Assembly (NCBI GenBank): GCA_963749915.1
Contig: CAVVOP010000016.1
Coordinates: 1 to 14,485, forward strand
Direction: 5' to 3'
DNA length: 14,485 nucleotides
From: an uncultured cyanobacterium
Lineage (GTDB): Bacteria > Cyanobacteriota > Cyanobacteriia > Cyanobacteriales > Cyanobacteriaceae
Shown here: in pieces, positions 686 to 14,485 of the stretch
Layout of the letters: each line of letters begins with the position of its first letter
How positions within the stretch are numbered: the stretch's first letter is position 1
Made by a program: the position numbers and the translations under genes
Notes under the pieces: model-generated
What the model was told of the DNA's origin: nothing
Seen by the model: only the letters and a program-made list of their open reading frames with translations
The model's database searches: none

Positions 686-2127
686 AGAAATAAATGGAAT
701 ACTACTTTTCTATCATACTCTCATCCCACAGATTTTTGTTTCACGACCGTAATTATTAATGAGTCGTGCTAGTAAATTAACTTATGATCGTGGGACATTA
801 ATTTTACATCCACCCCCAAGGGGGCAAACATGGATAAATTTTGCGACATGGGATGATAGAATCGAAAAATTCCGGATTCCTGCTATATATTATCGCTCAC
901 TGATCGAAACTTTTGAACAAGAAAACATTCATTTTATCGACTCCGCTAAAGAATTTTTCCCCCTCGAAATTCAGTCCAACCTACAAAAAACTCCTTATGC
1001 TCATCAAAAAGAAGCCTTAGAAGCTTGAAAAACAGAACAAAGAAAGGGTGTTGTTGTCTTACCAACGGCGGCTGGTAAAACTTATTTGGCACAATTGGCG
1101 ATCGCCTGTACTCCGAGAACAACTTTAATTGTAGTTCCTACCTTGGATTTAATGCACCAGTGGTATGCACAAATTGAACAGGCTTTTCCCAATATTGAAG
1201 TGGGATTGTTAGGGGGCGGTTCACATGATCGATCGCCAATTTTAATAGCAACCTATCATAACCTGAGTTTTGGTTAAGCAGATTGAGGTAAAAACCATTC
1301 CAGACGAAGGCTTGGCTTCTTTGGTTGGTGACAATATGCGATTAATCCACATAATAGATTGACACAAAAATTTATTGGTGAACGATGACGAGAATGTTCT
1401 ATTTGTGAGACATTCTTTAATTGGTCATTAATTGTTTCTATAATCGATCGTTTGCGAGATAATAATTTGTCATGAAGTCTCATTAATTTGTTCTTCATGT
1501 TACGTTTAGGTTTGGCAAAAAACTCGATTCCAAAATCTTCCAGTAGCTTGGTCGCTAATTTTTGTGACACATAACCTCTATGGCCAAAGACTTTTCCCCA
1601 AAGCTCTTTTAAAAGGTCAACGACGGGTTTACGGTCATCAACATTACCTGGAGTTAAACTCATATTGATAATTTCCCCCAGTTCATTGACAACCAGATGA
1701 AGTTTAAATCCAAAAAACCAGTCCACAGAGGTTTTCCCTCTTTGGGCTAAATCCTGAAAGACCTTATGGCGTGAAATACGTCGATTATGACAGACTTGAA
1801 TTTTAGTCGAATCGATAAAACTAATCCCAGTACAATTACCAAAGCAATGTTTAAGATAAACACACAAAGGAATGATTGTTGATGGAACCCATTGAATAAA
1901 TCGCTGATAACTGGGAAGTTTAGGAAAAGCATTCGACCAATATTGTTGAACATGATTCAGGTAAAAATGTTTAAAATTACGATAATGATTTTGGTGAAAA
2001 GCAATCAGGATAGTCATAATTTCACTTAAACACAAACTTTTCCCTCGAATACGGCTGACCGCTCCATGAAATAAGAGCTTGTTTTGCCATTGAGGCTCAA
2101 ATTGTTGGCAGAAATCATCCACATGAC

Positions 2128-3409
2128 CTGAGGGGGCGACAATGAAGCTAAACAGACGATGCTATAAGGGATTGAACATGCTAATCTGGATAAAGATAAG
2201 ATATTTTCAGTTTTTATATTAATTGCCATAGAAAAAAATGTTTCAACTTCCTCAATATTATCAGGATAATTTAAAAAAGCAGTTTAATTTACCTCAATAT
2301 TTAACTCTTTGTCTTTTAGTTAACTTACTTCAAAATCTTAAAACTGTCAGGTTAGAAGAAATGGCAAAACTTTTTCCTTATCCGATTAAATTAAGAAGTA
2401 GAATTAAAAAGTTACAACGATTTCTAAGTCTGGAAAATTGGAAAATTGAAACTATCTGGTTTCCCATTTTAAAATCATGGATTATTAATAATTGGGAATC
2501 GAAAAAAGTCATCTATTTCGTAATTGATAGAACACAGTGGCAAAATATTAATATATTGATGGTAAGTTTAGTTTATAATCAACGAGCTATTCCCGTTTAT
2601 TTTACATTACTAGATAAAAAAGGAAGCAGTAATTTATTAGAACAAAAACAAGTATTAGAACCGAGTATTAATTTATTAATTGAATATAAAATAATTGTCT
2701 TAGGAGATAGGGAATTTTGCTCTGTAGATTTAGCAAAGTGGTTATCAGTAGAGAAACAGGTTTATTTATCTCTACGTTTAAAAAAGAGTGAATATGTGGA
2801 GTTAGAAACTGATATATGGTTTCAATTAAGTGAATTAGGTTTATGTCCAGGATTCTCGGTATATTATCAAGGAATAAAAGTAACAAAAACCAAGGGATTT
2901 TCAGGAATTAATTTAGCCGCAAAGTGGAAAAGAAATTATGGTCATAAATCTAGCAAAGAACCATGGTTTATTTTAACAAATTTAGAAAATATGTCGGAAA
3001 CAATCTCCGCTTATTCCAAAAGAATGGGGATTGAAGAAATGTTTAGAGATTTGAAATTAGGCGGATATAATTTAGAGAGTACAAAGATGGAAAATGAACG
3101 ACTAATTTCTTTAATTATACTAATAACATTAGCCTATAGCTATTCAACATTTATAGGGGAAGAAATTAAAAGAAAAGGAATAAGTGAATATTTGGTTCGT
3201 CCGACAGAAAAAGGAAGAAGATATAAAAGAAATAGTGATTTTTCTATTGGTTTAAATGCCATAAAATGGCTAAGTGAAATCTGCTTTTTCCAAGAACAAT
3301 TGGAAGAATTAACCTCTTTATTTCCTCAGAAACACTCTTATTATCGTCAAGGTATGAGAGCTATTTCCCTTATCCAATCTGCGTTATGAATGCGTTGTCG
3401 CCCCCTCAG
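2128..3409 (+). mobile_element. IS4-family element nested in the IS982
   Basis: Perfect 15-bp IRs ctgagggggcgacaa / ttgtcgccccctcag; 9-bp TSD ccacatgac at 2119-2127 and 3410-3418. Confidence 0.93.
2238..3389 (+). CDS. IS4-family DDE transposase, apparently intact (383 aa)
   Basis: IDRT, GDREF and YSKRMGIEEMFRDLK (YREK-like) motifs; uninterrupted ORF between the IRs. Confidence 0.9.
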   Translation: MFQLPQYYQDNLKKQFNLPQYLTLCLLVNLLQNLKTVRLEEMAKLFPYPIKLRSRIKKLQRFLSLENWKIETIWFPILKSWIINNWESKKVIYFVIDRTQWQNINILMVSLVYNQRAIPVYFTLLDKKGSSNLLEQKQVLEPSINLLIEYKIIVLGDREFCSVDLAKWLSVEKQVYLSLRLKKSEYVELETDIWFQLSELGLCPGFSVYYQGIKVTKTKGFSGINLAAKWKRNYGHKSSKEPWFILTNLENMSETISAYSKRMGIEEMFRDLKLGGYNLESTKMENERLISLIILITLAYSYSTFIGEEIKRKGISEYLVRPTEKGRRYKRNSDFSIGLNAIKWLSEICFFQEQLEELTSLFPQKHSYYRQGMRAISLIQSAL

Positions 3410-4379
3410 CCACATGACAAAATAAATAATCTAAATTAAACATAAGGCAGTAGTTAGTTTGATGTGTGCTATATTCAGCTTACTATCTGCCTGTTTTCTT
3501 ATCCAAAACTGAGGTTATCATAGTGCAGCGATTCATGCCAAGACTTTAGGAAATCATTATGGGTTGTTGATTTTCGATGAATGTCATCATTTGCCGACGG
3601 ATTTTTTTCAGGTGATTGCGGAAGAATCCATTGCACCTTATCGCCTGGGGTTGACGGCGACTCCCGAAAGAGGCGACGGAAGCCATAGTTATTTAGACAG
3701 TTTAATTGGCAAAGTTATTTATCCTAAAACTCCTGAAGAATTATCAAAAAATACTTTAGCCGAATATCAAGTTATTCCTATAAAAGTCTCTTTAGAAATC
3801 GAAGAAAAAAGAAGATATGAACAAGCAATAAAAATTAGAAATAACTTTCTAAAACAATCAAATATTTCTCTTTCTAGTCTCGATGGCTGGCAATTATTCA
3901 TTAAAGCTAGTGCAAGGACAAATCAAGGCAGACAAGCAATGTTAGCCCATAGAGAATCAAAAGAAATTGCCTCTGGTACTAATGCAAAACTAAAAGTGTT
4001 AAGTGAGTTAATTGAAAAACATTATCCTGATAAAATTTTAATTTTTACCAATGATAATACTACAGTTTATCGAATTTCTCAACAATATTTAATTCCCTCA
4101 ATTACTTATCAAACTCCTGTAAAAGAACGCCATCAAATTTTAGCTAAATATCGTAGTGGAGAGTATAAAATTTTGGCAGCTTCTCATGTACTTAATGAAG
4201 GAGTTGACGTCCCAGACGCTAAAATAGCGATTATCCTCTCTGGTACTGGTTCAACTAGAGAATATATCCAAAGATTAGGGAGAATCTTGCGTAAAGCCAA
4301 CCACACTGAAAAATTAGCGATTCTTTATGAGGTAATTGCGGAAGAAACCTCCGATGAAAAAACGGCAGCTAGACGTAAA

Positions 4380-4730
4380 AGACATCTCCAAAAATTTATG
4401 ATTCTTTCATTATAAGCATTTGAAACCTTTTTACTCCTAGGGCGATCGCGCAGCGCCACTTCGTGATCGTGAAACGGCGCTGCGCGATCGCCGGCTCTTA
4501 ATCCTGTTATTTCGTCAAAAATCAAGAAAAATCCAATTTTGATGAAAAAATATGGGTTAACAGAACATCAATTATTTCTCCCGTTTCACTCGTTTTCCGA
4601 TGTTCAATTATTAAAGTTCCCATTCTTAATCTTACCAAACCACAAACGCTCAAAAAAACTGATTCATATTCCTCTTTTTTTAGTCTAAATCTTTCTCCCA
4701 TAACCTTAAATATTTTGATTATTCTAATTA
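4380..4730 (-). mobile_element. 3' remnant of an IS5-like (DDE_Tnp_4-type) element
   Basis: Minus frame 4728-4522 reads IRIIKIFKVMGERFRLKKEEYESVFLSVCGLVRLRMGTLIIEH..DFS*, not in the ORF track, resembling the C-terminus of cyanobacterial DDE_Tnp_4 transposases. Terminus-like agacatctccaaaaa at 4380-4394. Cut by the IS5 at 4731. Confidence 0.65.
4441..4492. repeat. HIP1-bounded palindromic insertion (17-bp perfect stem)
   Basis: ggcgatcgcgcagcgcc (4441-4457) and ggcgctgcgcgatcgcc (4476-4492) are exact reverse complements with an 18-nt loop; each arm contains GCGATCGC. Confidence 0.85.
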
Positions 4731-8633: not shown

Positions 8634-8796
8634 AACCTTTGTAAAAAACCTACTCTTGTCAGGTGTGGGAGGTGTGGGAAGTATTGGATTTCTCTTCCCT
8701 TTCTTCCCTATCCTTGTCACCACAGAAATTCTTCAAATCCCTCGCAGTATTGCCCCACTCCCTAACTGTTGCAAAAGTCTTTTTTGCAATGGGTTT
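8634..8796. repeat. Intergenic repeat-rich, MITE-like sequence
   Basis: Short tandem units ggtgtggga x2 and complementary-type (t)cttccc units; loose end symmetry aacctttgtaaaaaa / ttttttgcaatgggtt. Its 23-bp segment 8640-8662 recurs inverted at 9423-9445. Confidence 0.45.
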
Positions 8797-9422
8797 TATA
8801 CACTGGTTACAAAGTTAGTATCAGTAACCGAAGTACTGAGTAATTTACCAATTTCTCGTCCAAAGGCAGAAATCATGACGTCATTACCCACTTGCTCGTA
8901 ATCCCAGAGGGAACCTTTATCCTGGATGGTTAAGCCACTGTTAGCAAAGCCAATCACATCAAACTCAGGATCAAAATCATTGACTTGATTGATGTTTTCT
9001 GGAATAGCATTGATGTCCTCGATTAACCAAACTTGGTCAAAACCTGCACCTGTAGAGATGTTGTTGCCACCTCCACCAGAACCAGCGAATAAGATGTCAT
9101 CACCAGCACCTAAAATAATGCGGTTGTTAGTACCTGCAAACACGATGTCATCTCCGCTACCAGTATCGATGCGATTACCTTCACCAACCTGAGAGACATC
9201 CACCATATCGTCACCAGGACCAGTAGAGAGAAATTGCTCGTCACCGACAAACTGTTTGTTGTCAGGGAAGGCACTATCAAACTCGTCATCATCGGGAGTT
9301 CCCAAGACAAATTTAGGTGGAGGAACGACTTGATCAACTCCAAGACGCTCGTCTAAATCCAGGGGCGTAGATAATTTGATTTGGATCATCTCATTGTTGT
9401 CAATTTCTGGGGGTCGTCCCAT
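8796..9422 (-). pseudogene. C-terminal fragment of a secreted acidic protein with RTX/hemolysin-type Ca-binding Gly-Asp repeats
   Basis: TGPGDD, TGSGDD, LGAGDD, TGAGFD repeats and a DFDPEFDVIG tail. No signal peptide or catalytic domain. The ATG lies right beside a repeat-derived junction at 9423. Confidence 0.65.
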
Positions 9423-12894: not shown

Positions 12895-13237
12895 TTACGG
12901 AGAAATTTTGTTAAGAGTTATTGTTAAAAGTCCACTTAAAATTAAACCAGTACCCATCCAATGAAGAGTATTAACTTTTTCCCTCAAAAATAATGCCCCT
13001 GCTATTGTTGTCGCAATAACAGTTAAACCAATGATAATAGGATAAGCAATTGATAAATTGAATTTACCTAATACTATAATGTAAAAAACTGTGCTAATTC
13101 CATAAGTAGTTATACCGCTTAAAAGATGAATATTAATTAAGTCCTGATTCTGTTCCGAGCTTAAGTAATACTTGAGCGGTAGTATTTAAAACAACCGTAA
13201 CCAACATTAAGAAAGCAAACCAAAGATTTTGTAACAT
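12895..13237 (-). pseudogene. SMR/DMT-family small membrane transporter (ArnE/ArnF-like), frameshifted
   Basis: MLQNLWFAFLMLVTVVLNTTAQVLLKLG, then a one-base shift near 13150, then QDLINIHLLSGITTYGISTVFYIIVLGKFNLSIAYPIIIGLTVIATTIAGALFLREKVNTLHWMGTGLILSGLLTI..SP*. Not in the ORF track. Confidence 0.85.
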
Positions 13238-13257
13238 GTTTTAAAATTAAGTAATTA

Positions 13258-13776
13258 CTATTGATCAATAAAATGATCAACTTTACAAAGTTCATCAATG
13301 AAAGCATAAGGAAATTGTACCCATTTACCAAATATTTTCTCCCACCAACGAGGGGGATGAGGAAGACTAGCAACTTGAATACAAGGACAGCCAACTAAAT
13401 AGGAACCTATTATGTCCGTATGAAGACTATCTCCAATCACAACAACTTGTTTTGGTTTCAGCTTCATTACCGATAGAGCTTTCCAGAAACTAAATGGAAA
13501 AGGTTTATAAGCTGGGTTAATTATAGGTATATTTAAGCGTTCAGACCAAATTTTCGCCCGAATACGACGTTTCCCGTTAGAAAGGATAAACACTTTTAAT
13601 CTTTGTGATTTTGCTTGTTGAATCCATTCCATTGCTCCAGGTGATAAATATTTGTCATCTTCGGAAACAATTGTATTATCAAGATTGAGGATAAAACCCC
13701 TAATATCAAATTGTTTTAAGGAGAGAATATCGATAGAAGCTAGAGTATGATGTTGTTGATTAAATTTCAAGACCAT
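13258..13776 (-). CDS. YqeG-family HAD IIIA phosphatase, motif I altered (NLDNT)
   Basis: ILSN, KP and IGDSLHTDI motifs; the first Asp of DxD is Asn (AAT). Confidence 0.85.
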   Translation of the reverse strand: MVLKFNQQHHTLASIDILSLKQFDIRGFILNLDNTIVSEDDKYLSPGAMEWIQQAKSQRLKVFILSNGKRRIRAKIWSERLNIPIINPAYKPFPFSFWKALSVMKLKPKQVVVIGDSLHTDIIGSYLVGCPCIQVASLPHPPRWWEKIFGKWVQFPYAFIDELCKVDHFIDQ

Positions 13777-13809
13777 AAAACAAGATGGTTAATAAGTATT
13801 GATATATAT

Positions 13810-13942
13810 TAGACTTGGTCGGTAATGAGAGAACAAAAATGCCCTTAAATCCTTACGTGATAAACACCTCAGTTAATTTTATTTATTACAATCATTAAAA
13901 GCCTTGCTGTGTAAGATTTTCAACTATTTCCGATTAAGTCTA
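13810..13942. mobile_element. ~133-bp MITE-like element
   Basis: IR tagacttggtcggtaat / atttccgattaagtcta (14/17) with TA ends, directly after the stop codon of the upstream gene. Confidence 0.55.
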
Positions 13943-14080
13943 TTATAGTAGTCCATAGTTCTTGAGTAACATAATACTAATAATTGACAAAACCCAACAT
14001 ATGACAGTTAATAAAATGGGAAGATCTTGTAACAAAATTTCTTCGGGCCTTTCACTTTTTTCATGTTCCATATCTCTTCT
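13943..14080 (-). pseudogene. 3' end of a UbiA-family (decaprenyl-phosphate phosphoribosyltransferase-like) gene, cut at the junction
   Basis: RRDMEHEKSERPEEILLQDLPILLTVICWVLSIISIMLLKNYGLL*. ERPEEILL.D.PI plus a final TM helix resembles the cyanobacterial enzyme's C-terminus; co-oriented with the yqeG-like and SMR genes. Confidence 0.65.
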
Positions 14081-14306
14081 GTGCAACCACCTCAACAGCC
14101 TCCTCAGATGCAGCAGCCTCAGCAGCCACCTCCTCAGCAAATGCAGGCGCAGCCACCCATGCAAATGCAGCCGCCGCCGCAGAGAGCACAAGCGCCGCCG
14201 GAGCATCATCATCATCCACCACCCATTATCAAGGCAGACCCGCAAATGCAGCAGTTGCCCATTCGTGCCTACCTAGATCAGACTGTGGTTCCCATTCTTC
14301 TCGATG
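14081..14306 (+). CDS. DPY30: Eukaryotic Dpy-30 (COMPASS/Set1 complex subunit), exon with Q/P-rich region; native 5' end missing
   Basis: [62 protein letters not shown] is the Dpy-30 signature. GC is 37/60 in line 14101 vs 16/60 in line 13981. Confidence 0.92.
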
Positions 14307-14423
14307 GTAGGTTGTTCGTTAGTACTCTTTTGTTGTTGAAATTAATCTCTCTTTATAAATCTCTGCGGATCTTACACTCGACACTCAACTTGCGCTCTTC
14401 TTCAATTTTTGGATGAACAACAG
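14307..14423 (+). other. 117-nt spliceosomal GT-AG intron, phase 1
   Basis: Donor g|gtaggt, acceptor caacag|g, candidate branch ctcaac (14384-14389), pyrimidine-rich tract, in-frame TGA at 14414-14416. Removal restores a continuous Dpy-30 motif. Confidence 0.92.
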
Positions 14424-14485
14424 GCATGTCGGAATTGGTCAAGGAGCGTCCTGCGAATCCTATTGAATACTTGGCAAGCTACTTG
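14424..14485 (+). CDS. DPY30: Dpy-30, next exon (runs off the window end)
   Basis: (G)[20 protein letters not shown] matches the Dpy-30 consensus KERP.NPIE.LA.YL. Confidence 0.92.

What the first reader, a model, noticed from the sequence alone, without database searches (positions are those of the whole stretch)
13943..14485. Cyanobacterial DNA fused directly to an intron-containing eukaryotic Dpy-30 gene
Seen: at ~14080 the 3' end of an AT-rich bacterial membrane-protein gene switches to GC-rich Q/P-coding DNA with no linker, IR or TSD. After removing a canonical 117-nt GT-AG intron it encodes [38 protein letters not shown]. Established: Dpy-30 is a eukaryotic H3K4-methyltransferase (COMPASS) subunit, and spliceosomal introns do not occur in bacteria, so this is nuclear genomic DNA. 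Inference: (a) a >14-kb insertion of cyanobacterial, possibly symbiont, DNA into a eukaryotic nucleus (NUPT/NUMT-like; the sequence looks diatom/stramenopile-like to me, unverified), (b) host DNA captured by the cyanobacterium, or (c) a chimeric read/contig from a mixed sample. Both genes are cut mid-CDS, which fits either end-joining or an artefact. If the contig ends near 14485, (c) becomes more likely.
Basis: partly seen in the sequence, partly recalled or inferred. Interest (0 to 1): 0.95.

Follow-up and report, generated by a model that had tools for sequence, protein, structure and literature searches.

The report
Diatom gene fragment on cyanobacterial contig
The last 400 bases of this cyanobacterial contig really are a piece of a diatom nuclear gene with an intron, but it was most likely stuck on during sequencing or assembly of a mixed sample, not by nature.

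Summary
The window is a whole 14,485-bp contig (C16) of a 4.69-Mb cyanobacterial draft genome. At 13943-14074 (-) lie only the last ~40 codons of a UbiA-family prenyltransferase. From 14083 to the contig end lies a diatom-type Dpy-30 gene fragment, split by a 117-nt GT-AG intron at a codon where relatives also carry introns.

The interpretation as a natural inter-kingdom fusion is not supported. The foreign piece is a 403-bp tail at the extreme end of the contig and stops in sequence that is unique in the assembly.

A second contig (C17) starts with 2.9 kb of Desulfobacterales DNA. Its uvrA fragment is 701/711 residues identical to an environmental UvrA and is cut at residue 228. It abuts a 5'-cut cyanobacterial znuA. 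The missing first 25 codons of that znuA sit at the very end of contig C20, so that foreign tail displaces a true chromosomal adjacency.

The assembly therefore carries chimeric contig ends made from DNA of co-occurring organisms, and the Dpy-30 tail is best read as another one (about 0.87).

Read-level proof was not available: no public run that I could reach holds the junction. A real junction remains possible at a few per cent.

The parts
13258..13776 (-). HAD-superfamily hydrolase gene (172 aa), cyanobacterial. It is the neighbour of the UbiA gene, as in relative G024.
   Evidence: Pfam PF00702 43.4 bits and PF13242. 61% identical homologue next to a methyltransferase and a UbiA gene in G024. 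56-66% identical in records titled Leptolyngbyaceae, Leptolyngbya and Geitlerinema.
13943..14074 (-). 3' fragment (last ~40 codons plus stop) of a UbiA-family prenyltransferase gene. About 270-290 N-terminal codons are missing.
   Evidence: tblastn to 8 of 8 related loci, 46-70% identity, starting at SERPEE. The full-length relatives are 315-336 aa with PF01040. The rest of the gene was not found in the assembly.
14063..14082 (.). Junction interval of unassigned origin (20 nt). It lies between the last base with cyanobacterial homology and the first base with diatom homology.
   Evidence: Cyanobacterial similarity reaches 14059-14071. Contigs of related diatoms match from 14083 and carry other, in-frame Q/P-coding letters before it (record 4 of X3). 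No repeat spans it.
14083..14306 (+). Dpy-30 exon, cut at its 5' side. It holds the Q/P-rich N-terminal region and the first half of the Dpy-30 motif.
   Evidence: Pfam PF05186 positions 2-17 at 14261-14308. Diatom homologues share the Q/P-rich lead and the motif.
14307..14423 (+). 117-nt GT...AG intron, phase 1, within the Gly codon after LLD.
   Evidence: Among 73 metagenome loci that hold both exon blocks, 20 have a GT...AG gap of 49-702 nt at the same codon and 44 have the blocks adjacent. DNA similarity to relatives is limited to 14232-14315 and 14410-14485. 4 of 11 fetched gene calls run into non-homologous residues right after LLDG.
14424..14485 (+). Dpy-30 exon 2, cut by the contig end. 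Homologues go on for 13-15 more residues.
   Evidence: Pfam PF05186 positions 15-37, 33.4 bits. Target ranges end 13-15 residues before the homologues' ends.

Best explanation
The junction is an artefact: a chimeric contig end. The genome was assembled from a sample that also held diatoms and sediment bacteria. A hybrid molecule or read, or an assembler mis-join, attached 403 bp of diatom nuclear DNA to the end of a cyanobacterial contig inside a UbiA gene. That DNA is part of a Dpy-30 gene, intron included. Nothing competed for that end, so the tail stayed, and binning and marker-based quality control did not notice it.

Shown: the identity of both halves, the terminal position, and a proven foreign tail of the same kind elsewhere in the assembly.

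Inferred: that this particular junction arose in vitro or in silico, and that long reads were used. The contig runs through 1.3-1.7-kb insertion sequences that are 99.5-100% identical to copies on other contigs.
For: (1) The window is the whole contig C16:1-14485 of a 34-contig, 4.69-Mb assembly. The assembly is cyanobacterial: 10 phycobilisome-family matches.

(2) The diatom piece is the last 403 bp. The contig stops inside exon 2, in sequence with no other copy in the assembly. It therefore ended for lack of data, not at a repeat. The left end lies in an IS1-type repeat with 4-9 other copies.

(3) Both genes are cut mid-CDS, with no repeat, linker or duplication at the joint.

(4) Independent case in the same assembly. 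C17:1-~2921 has 57% G+C and carries atpE and a uvrA fragment. The fragment is 701/711 residues identical to a 938-aa UvrA and starts at its residue 228. The named hits at 90-99% identity are all 'MAG: Desulfobacterales bacterium'. The genome's own uvrA is on C21, at 54% identity.

(5) That tail abuts a 5'-cut znuA that is 74-81% identical to the znuA of 6 of 6 same-genus genomes. The missing first 25 codons, with the lipobox LGGCNQ, form the last 80 nt of contig C20. The true chromosome therefore runs from the C20 end into C17:~2922, and the foreign 2.9 kb is a false extension.

(6) Background from the literature. [quoted passage not shown] GUNC (PMC8201837, abstract start seen in the listing) addresses the same problem.
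Against: - No read-level evidence. The one run search found no run with half or more of the words, and the laid contigs cover only one side each.
- Unlike the C17/C20 case, no partner contig with the missing 5' part of the UbiA gene exists in the assembly. No 12-mer of 14030-14082 recurs at another contig end. The true continuation is therefore not shown.
- No intact same-species UbiA allele was found; the best were 66-68% identical.
- The two tails come from different organisms and have different lengths, so the C17 case is an analogy, not proof for C16.
Confidence: 0.87

Rival explanations
1. Real capture of diatom DNA by the cyanobacterium: environmental diatom nuclear DNA was taken up and integrated by illegitimate recombination inside the UbiA gene, destroying it.
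For: The rest of the UbiA gene is absent from a 100%-complete assembly, as expected if the gene was disrupted. The genome is rich in mobile elements and broken genes. The HAD-UbiA region is accessory, with no DNA match in 6 same-genus genomes.
Against: A real insert would be followed by more DNA at full depth, yet the contig stops 403 bp in, within unique sequence. There is no second junction back into cyanobacterial DNA. An intron-bearing gene fragment has no selectable use in a bacterium. The same assembly has a foreign tail that is shown to displace a true adjacency.
Confidence: 0.07
2. The contig is diatom nuclear DNA holding a recent insertion of more than 14 kb of cyanobacterial DNA (NUPT-like, or a transfer from a symbiont or epibiont).
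For: The tail is true nuclear-type DNA, with an intron at a position shared with diatom relatives. Related diatom sequences and a close relative of the cyanobacterial HAD region occur in estuary and sediment data sets, so the two organisms could plausibly meet (small shares only).
Against: Only one side shows eukaryotic DNA. The other contig end is an ordinary insertion-sequence repeat shared with other contigs of the cyanobacterial assembly. Internal insertion sequences are 99.5-100% identical to copies on other contigs, and open reading frames are intact, so there is no sign of decay. 13074-14082 occurs once in the assembly, so it is the cyanobacterium's only copy.
Confidence: 0.03
3. A bacterial Dpy-30/RIIa-like domain gene native to the cyanobacterium, with the 'intron' being a chance frame interruption.
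For: The Dpy-30 model gave sub-threshold matches in 10 of 14 control prokaryote genomes, so weak bacterial look-alikes exist.
Against: None of the 14 control matches exceeds the cut-off. The window's peptide is 36-38/38 identical to diatom proteins. The interruption sits where 20 of 73 related loci have GT...AG gaps. No match to the 13240-14485 query, which includes the tail, in the 40 related cyanobacterial genomes, apart from one 38-nt match (E 9.8e-4) in G022 to the low-complexity Q/P-coding repeat at about 14090-14127.
Confidence: 0.01

Closest known systems
Interspecies chimeric contigs in draft and metagenome-assembled prokaryote genomes (the problem addressed by GUNC, PMC8201837, and by preprint 10.64898/2026.10.15.759294; I saw only the search listing and abstract starts of both)
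   Same: Foreign DNA from a co-occurring organism is joined within one contig. Both genes are cut at the joint. Marker-based completeness and contamination figures do not reveal it (100% / 2.09% here).
   Different: Here the partner is a eukaryote's nuclear gene with an intron, which makes the join look like inter-kingdom transfer. The tail is very short (403 bp) and terminal.
Dpy-30 / Sdc1 family (Pfam PF05186), the small dimerising subunit of COMPASS-type H3K4 methyltransferase complexes; the function is recalled from general knowledge. Nearest named proteins: Entomoneis paludosa A0A7S2VAY1 and the Fragilariopsis cylindrus CCMP1102 Dpy-30-domain protein
   Same: Dpy-30 motif with 36-37 of 38 residues identical, a Q/P-rich N-terminal lead, and an intron at the same codon as in many related loci.
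   Different: It is only a fragment. The 5' end is cut in the low-complexity lead and the 3' end by the contig end (model positions 2-37 of 42). No same-species full-length gene was found.
NUPT/NUMT-type insertions and endosymbiotic gene transfer
   Same: Prokaryote-type DNA lies directly next to nuclear DNA.
   Different: There is only one junction, no decay of the prokaryote part, and the contig belongs by its repeats to a complete cyanobacterial genome. Read support could not be tested.
UbiA-superfamily prenyltransferases of cyanobacteria (310-336 aa; some sources label them 4-hydroxybenzoate polyprenyltransferase)
   Same: The C-terminal 37-41 residues align at 46-70%. The gene sits next to a HAD hydrolase gene, as in G024.
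   Different: The catalytic PF01040 domain is entirely missing from the window and from the assembly.

Membership tests
Dpy-30 (PF05186) | Match to the Dpy-30 motif profile above Pfam's cut-off | tested here: met
   33.4 bits (cut-off 22) for 14417-14485 and 17.3 bits for 14261-14308, together covering model positions 2-37 of 42. Exon 1 alone is below the cut-off.
Dpy-30 (PF05186) | Close sequence relatives are annotated eukaryotic Dpy-30 proteins | tested here: met
   29 hits. The named ones are Dpy-30 proteins of diatoms or JGI 'protein dpy-30'. 36-38/38 identity.
Dpy-30 (PF05186) | Complete gene able to give a functional protein | tested here: not met
   Cut at 14083 in the N-terminal lead and at 14485 by the contig end, 13-15 residues short.
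Spliceosomal intron | GT...AG ends, restoration of the frame, and exon-limited conservation with variable or absent intron in relatives | tested here: met
   20 of 73 loci have a GT...AG gap at the same codon, 44 of 73 have none, and 9 of 73 have gaps without GT...AG in my projection. Several loci are duplicates of one organism, so these are not independent counts.
Spliceosomal intron | Spliced RNA of this very gene observed | tested here: inconclusive
   The laid metatranscriptome contigs of relatives carry the intron or a different intron. No joint was reported.
UbiA prenyltransferase (PF01040) | UbiA catalytic domain present | tested here: not met
   No Pfam match for the 43-aa fragment. 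The domain lies in residues ~27-259 of the full-length relatives, and that part is absent here.
Chimeric contig end (assembly artefact) | Foreign segment at the contig terminus, with genes cut at the joint | tested here: met
Chimeric contig end (assembly artefact) | Other foreign tails in the same assembly that displace a true adjacency | tested here: met
   The C17 tail from Desulfobacterales, with the znuA start at the C20 end.
Chimeric contig end (assembly artefact) | Few or no independent reads span the joint; depth step | not testable with these tools
   No reachable run holds the junction. No depth information is held.
NUPT-like nuclear insertion / real inter-kingdom transfer | Foreign DNA flanked on both sides by host DNA and supported by many reads | tested here: not met
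   There is one junction only, and the other contig end is a cyanobacterial insertion-sequence repeat. Read support is not testable.

The most novel reading that the evidence does not exclude
The joint exists in nature: a living cyanobacterium carries a freshly integrated piece of diatom nuclear DNA, intron included, inside its UbiA gene, or a diatom nucleus carries a fresh piece of more than 14 kb of cyanobacterial chromosome. That would be a snapshot of inter-kingdom DNA transfer before any decay.
Probability: 0.08. Interest if true: 0.8.

Novelty: not a real feature. Interest (0 to 1): 0.07.

Why it matters
As biology it most likely does not matter. As data hygiene it does. This genome is held as its species' representative in the tool's genome collection, and at least two of its contigs end in DNA of other organisms (a diatom and a Desulfobacterales bacterium).

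Such tails can seed false claims of inter-kingdom gene transfer, false 'eukaryotic-like' proteins in bacterial proteomes, and false duplicates of core genes such as uvrA and atpE.

The C20/C17 case also gives a concrete scaffold join for the assembly. If the junction proved real after all, it would be a rare direct view of eukaryote-prokaryote DNA exchange.

Tried and rejected
(1) Public-run search with 13700-14485. Five runs were listed, all with small shares (0.04-0.10), and none had half of the words.

(2) Laying four of them. Three estuary metatranscriptome runs gave contigs covering parts of 14083-14460 only; one of the four pieces is 95-99% alike and three are below 95%. One sediment run covered 13526-13830 only. 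Nothing bridges the joint, so neither support nor refutation comes from reads. No spliced joint was reported.

(3) Partner contig for the UbiA 5' part: not found with a 336-aa relative as query, and no shared 12-mers at other contig ends.

(4) Intact same-species UbiA allele in the 5.8-billion-protein set: the best hits were only 66-68% identical.

(5) Same-species diatom locus among 80 metagenome loci: the best DNA identity was 79-89%, over the exons only. The natural flank of this exact gene was therefore not seen.

(6) Rfam on the window and on three contig ends: no family at gathering score.

(7) Repeats at the joint: only the Q/P-coding repeats and an intergenic 22-nt imperfect inverted repeat at 13805-13947.

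(8) A genome-wide 4-mer outlier scan flags many internal segments as well as C17:501-2900. I did not classify the internal ones, so I cannot say that foreign DNA is confined to contig ends.

(9) C23's G+C-rich 958-bp tail: no match in 20 related genomes. The flanking cyanobacterial DNA is a multi-copy family, so no partner could be traced. Its origin remains open.

(10) Earlier notes of this scan: nothing similar to the tail. The one note on this genome concerns another contig.

Full report
WHAT THE WINDOW IS

The 14,485 bases are the whole of contig C16 of an assembly of 4,693,193 bases in 34 contigs, rated 100% complete and 2.09% contaminated. The assembly is cyanobacterial: the phycobilisome family PF00502 matches ten places in it, and among 14 control genomes it matches only Synechococcus elongatus.

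The contig is packed with insertion sequences. Transposase ORFs of the IS1, DDE_Tnp_1, DDE_Tnp_1_2/DUF772, DDE_Tnp_1_3 and ISL3 types were found. Twenty-three alignments of 700 nt or more link it to other contigs. Several are 99.5-100% identical over 1.3-1.7 kb, and some lie at other contigs' ends.

Only 13074-14485 has no other copy in the assembly. Because the contig runs through such long near-identical repeats, I infer that long reads took part in the assembly. This is inference, not shown.

THE OBSERVATION

It is correct.

- Composition. G+C jumps from 30.0% (13680-14082) to 50.6% (14083-14485). The genome's 403-nt windows average 37.5 +/- 5.9%.
- Cyanobacterial side, HAD gene. 13258-13776 (-) is a HAD-type hydrolase gene.
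- Cyanobacterial side, UbiA fragment. 13943-14074 (-) is the C-terminal end of a UbiA-family prenyltransferase. It aligns to the last 37-41 residues of 310-336-aa proteins with PF01040 in 8 of 8 related loci compared, at 46-70% identity. Similarity begins at the motif SERPEE.
- Synteny. In relative G024 the HAD homologue (61% identical) lies two genes from such a UbiA gene on the same strand. The arrangement is therefore native, and the UbiA gene here lacks roughly its first 270-290 codons.
- Missing part. The missing part is not elsewhere in the assembly. Only a 27%-identical paralogue on C21 appears.

THE EUKARYOTIC SIDE

- Intron and peptide.
- Pfam. Dpy-30 matches in two halves that overlap at the splice point: positions 2-17 at 14261-14308 and 15-37 at 14417-14485. 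The second half scores 33.4 bits against a cut-off of 22. No control prokaryote genome exceeds the cut-off.
- Protein relatives. A search with residues 43-82 of the exon-1 ORF gave 29 hits. All the named ones are Dpy-30 proteins, and the ones with organism names are diatoms, Entomoneis paludosa and Fragilariopsis cylindrus. The 38 residues are identical in 38, 37 and 36 positions to P0006, the Entomoneis protein and the Fragilariopsis protein.
- Intron in gene calls. Four of 11 fetched gene calls run into unrelated residues, or hold an in-frame insertion, right after LLDG.
- Intron in metagenome loci. Of 80 metagenome loci, 73 hold both exon blocks. Of these, 20 have a GT...AG gap of 49-702 nt at exactly this codon, 44 have the blocks adjacent, and 9 show gaps without GT...AG in my projection. 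Several loci are copies of one organism, so these are not independent events.
- DNA similarity. Similarity to these loci is confined to 14232-14315 and 14410-14485.

The gene is cut on both sides. Homologues continue 13-15 residues beyond the contig end. A metatranscriptome contig of a close relative matches from 14083 and carries different, in-frame Q/P-coding letters before it. The joint therefore lies in 14063-14082. No repeat, linker or duplication was detected there.

REAL OR ARTEFACT

Reads would decide, and I could not get them. The laid contigs cover one side or the other, never the joint. The argument is therefore circumstantial, but it has one strong leg.

First leg: position. The foreign piece is a 403-bp tail at the very end of a contig, and the contig stops in sequence that is unique in the assembly. 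Assemblies stop in unique sequence when data run out, which fits a rare hybrid molecule and not an insert present in every cell. The other end of the contig is an ordinary insertion-sequence repeat.

Second leg: the same assembly holds another such tail, and that one can be shown to be false.

- What the tail is. C17 begins with about 2,921 bases at 57% G+C. It carries an ATP synthase c-subunit gene and a uvrA fragment.
- Its source. The uvrA fragment is 701 of 711 residues identical to a 938-residue UvrA and starts at that protein's residue 228. The named hits at 90-99% identity are all labelled as Desulfobacterales MAGs.
- The genome's own copy. The cyanobacterium's own uvrA is on C21 and is only 54% identical.
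- What it abuts. At C17:~2922 the sequence turns into a znuA gene that is 74-81% identical to the znuA of 6 of 6 same-genus genomes but lacks its start.
- Where the start is. That start is 25 codons ending in the lipoprotein box LGGCNQ. It forms the last 80 bases of contig C20 and matches the first 80 bases of the same-genus znuA at 83%.

The true chromosome thus runs from the end of C20 into C17:~2922, and the 2.9 kb of sediment-bacterium DNA is a false extension.

A third end is not explained: the last 958 bases of C23, at 51% G+C with no convincing ORF and no match in 20 related genomes.

Interspecies chimeric contigs are a known and frequent flaw of genomes assembled from mixed samples. 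I saw only the listing and abstract starts of PMC8201837 and of preprint 10.64898/2026.10.15.759294, the latter reporting 444 of 640 near-complete benchmark MAGs affected.

WHAT REMAINS AGAINST THIS READING

For C16 I found no partner contig holding the rest of the UbiA gene and no intact same-species allele. The true continuation is thus not shown. It may sit on a short contig that did not enter the genome, or the gene may be truly truncated.

I did not classify the internal compositional outliers, so I cannot claim that foreign DNA occurs only at ends.

A real integration of diatom DNA into the cyanobacterium (about 0.07), or of cyanobacterial DNA into a diatom nucleus (about 0.03), is not excluded.

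COMPARISON AND VERDICT

The tail is a fragment of a diatom member of the Dpy-30 family. Profile, relatives and intron position are all met, but completeness is not. The cyanobacterial piece is the remnant of a UbiA-family gene without its catalytic domain. The junction fits a chimeric contig end in every feature that could be tested.

Novelty class: not a real feature. Interest is low. The practical value is to flag the record, trim C16:14063-14485 and C17:1-2921, and join C20 to C17.

Noticed in passing
G000 contig C17:1-2921 (locus L028) and the C20 right end (C20:283401-283480): A 2.9-kb tail at 57% G+C with atpE and a uvrA fragment that is 99% identical to Desulfobacterales MAG proteins. 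It is fused to a 5'-cut cyanobacterial znuA whose first 25 codons lie at the end of contig C20. This is a demonstrable chimeric contig end and an implied C20-C17 join.
   Followed up: yes
G000 contig C23:17232-18189 (L029:3233-4190): A 958-bp terminal stretch at 51% G+C with no convincing ORF. It starts right after a hairpin downstream of a small multi-copy cyanobacterial gene. There is no match in 20 related genomes and no Rfam family. It may be another foreign tail; the origin is unknown.
   Followed up: partly
window 759-1028 and 3564-4415 (+), with 1274-2122 (-) and 2238-3389 (+) between: An XPB/ERCC3-like helicase gene (damage-recognition domain, then ResIII end plus Helicase_C) appears split by two different insertion sequences. 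Its 3' part (3516-4382) has two further copies on C5 that are 99.7-99.9% identical.
   Followed up: no
window 13240-14082: The HAD-UbiA region has no DNA match in 6 same-genus genomes. The HAD protein's best relatives (56-66%) are in records titled Leptolyngbyaceae, Leptolyngbya and Geitlerinema, and in G024 of another family (61%). It is an accessory region, perhaps exchanged among cyanobacteria.
   Followed up: partly
window 12895-13237 (-): Two short ORFs (34 and 30 aa) with membrane-helix-like sequence lie in different frames. They may be a frameshifted small membrane-protein gene next to the HAD gene.
   Followed up: no
window 14183-14460, laid runs X1-X3: Estuary metatranscriptome contigs of close relatives of the diatom gene still hold the intron (X1 record 1) or a different sequence upstream of exon 2 (X1 record 2). 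Unspliced RNA or DNA carry-over of related diatoms is therefore present in those libraries.
   Followed up: partly
window 8796-9422 (-): A 208-aa ORF with a weak RTX/hemolysin-type calcium-binding repeat match (18.2 bits, below the cut-off) in a G+C-richer patch. It has 1-3 partial copies elsewhere in the assembly.
   Followed up: no
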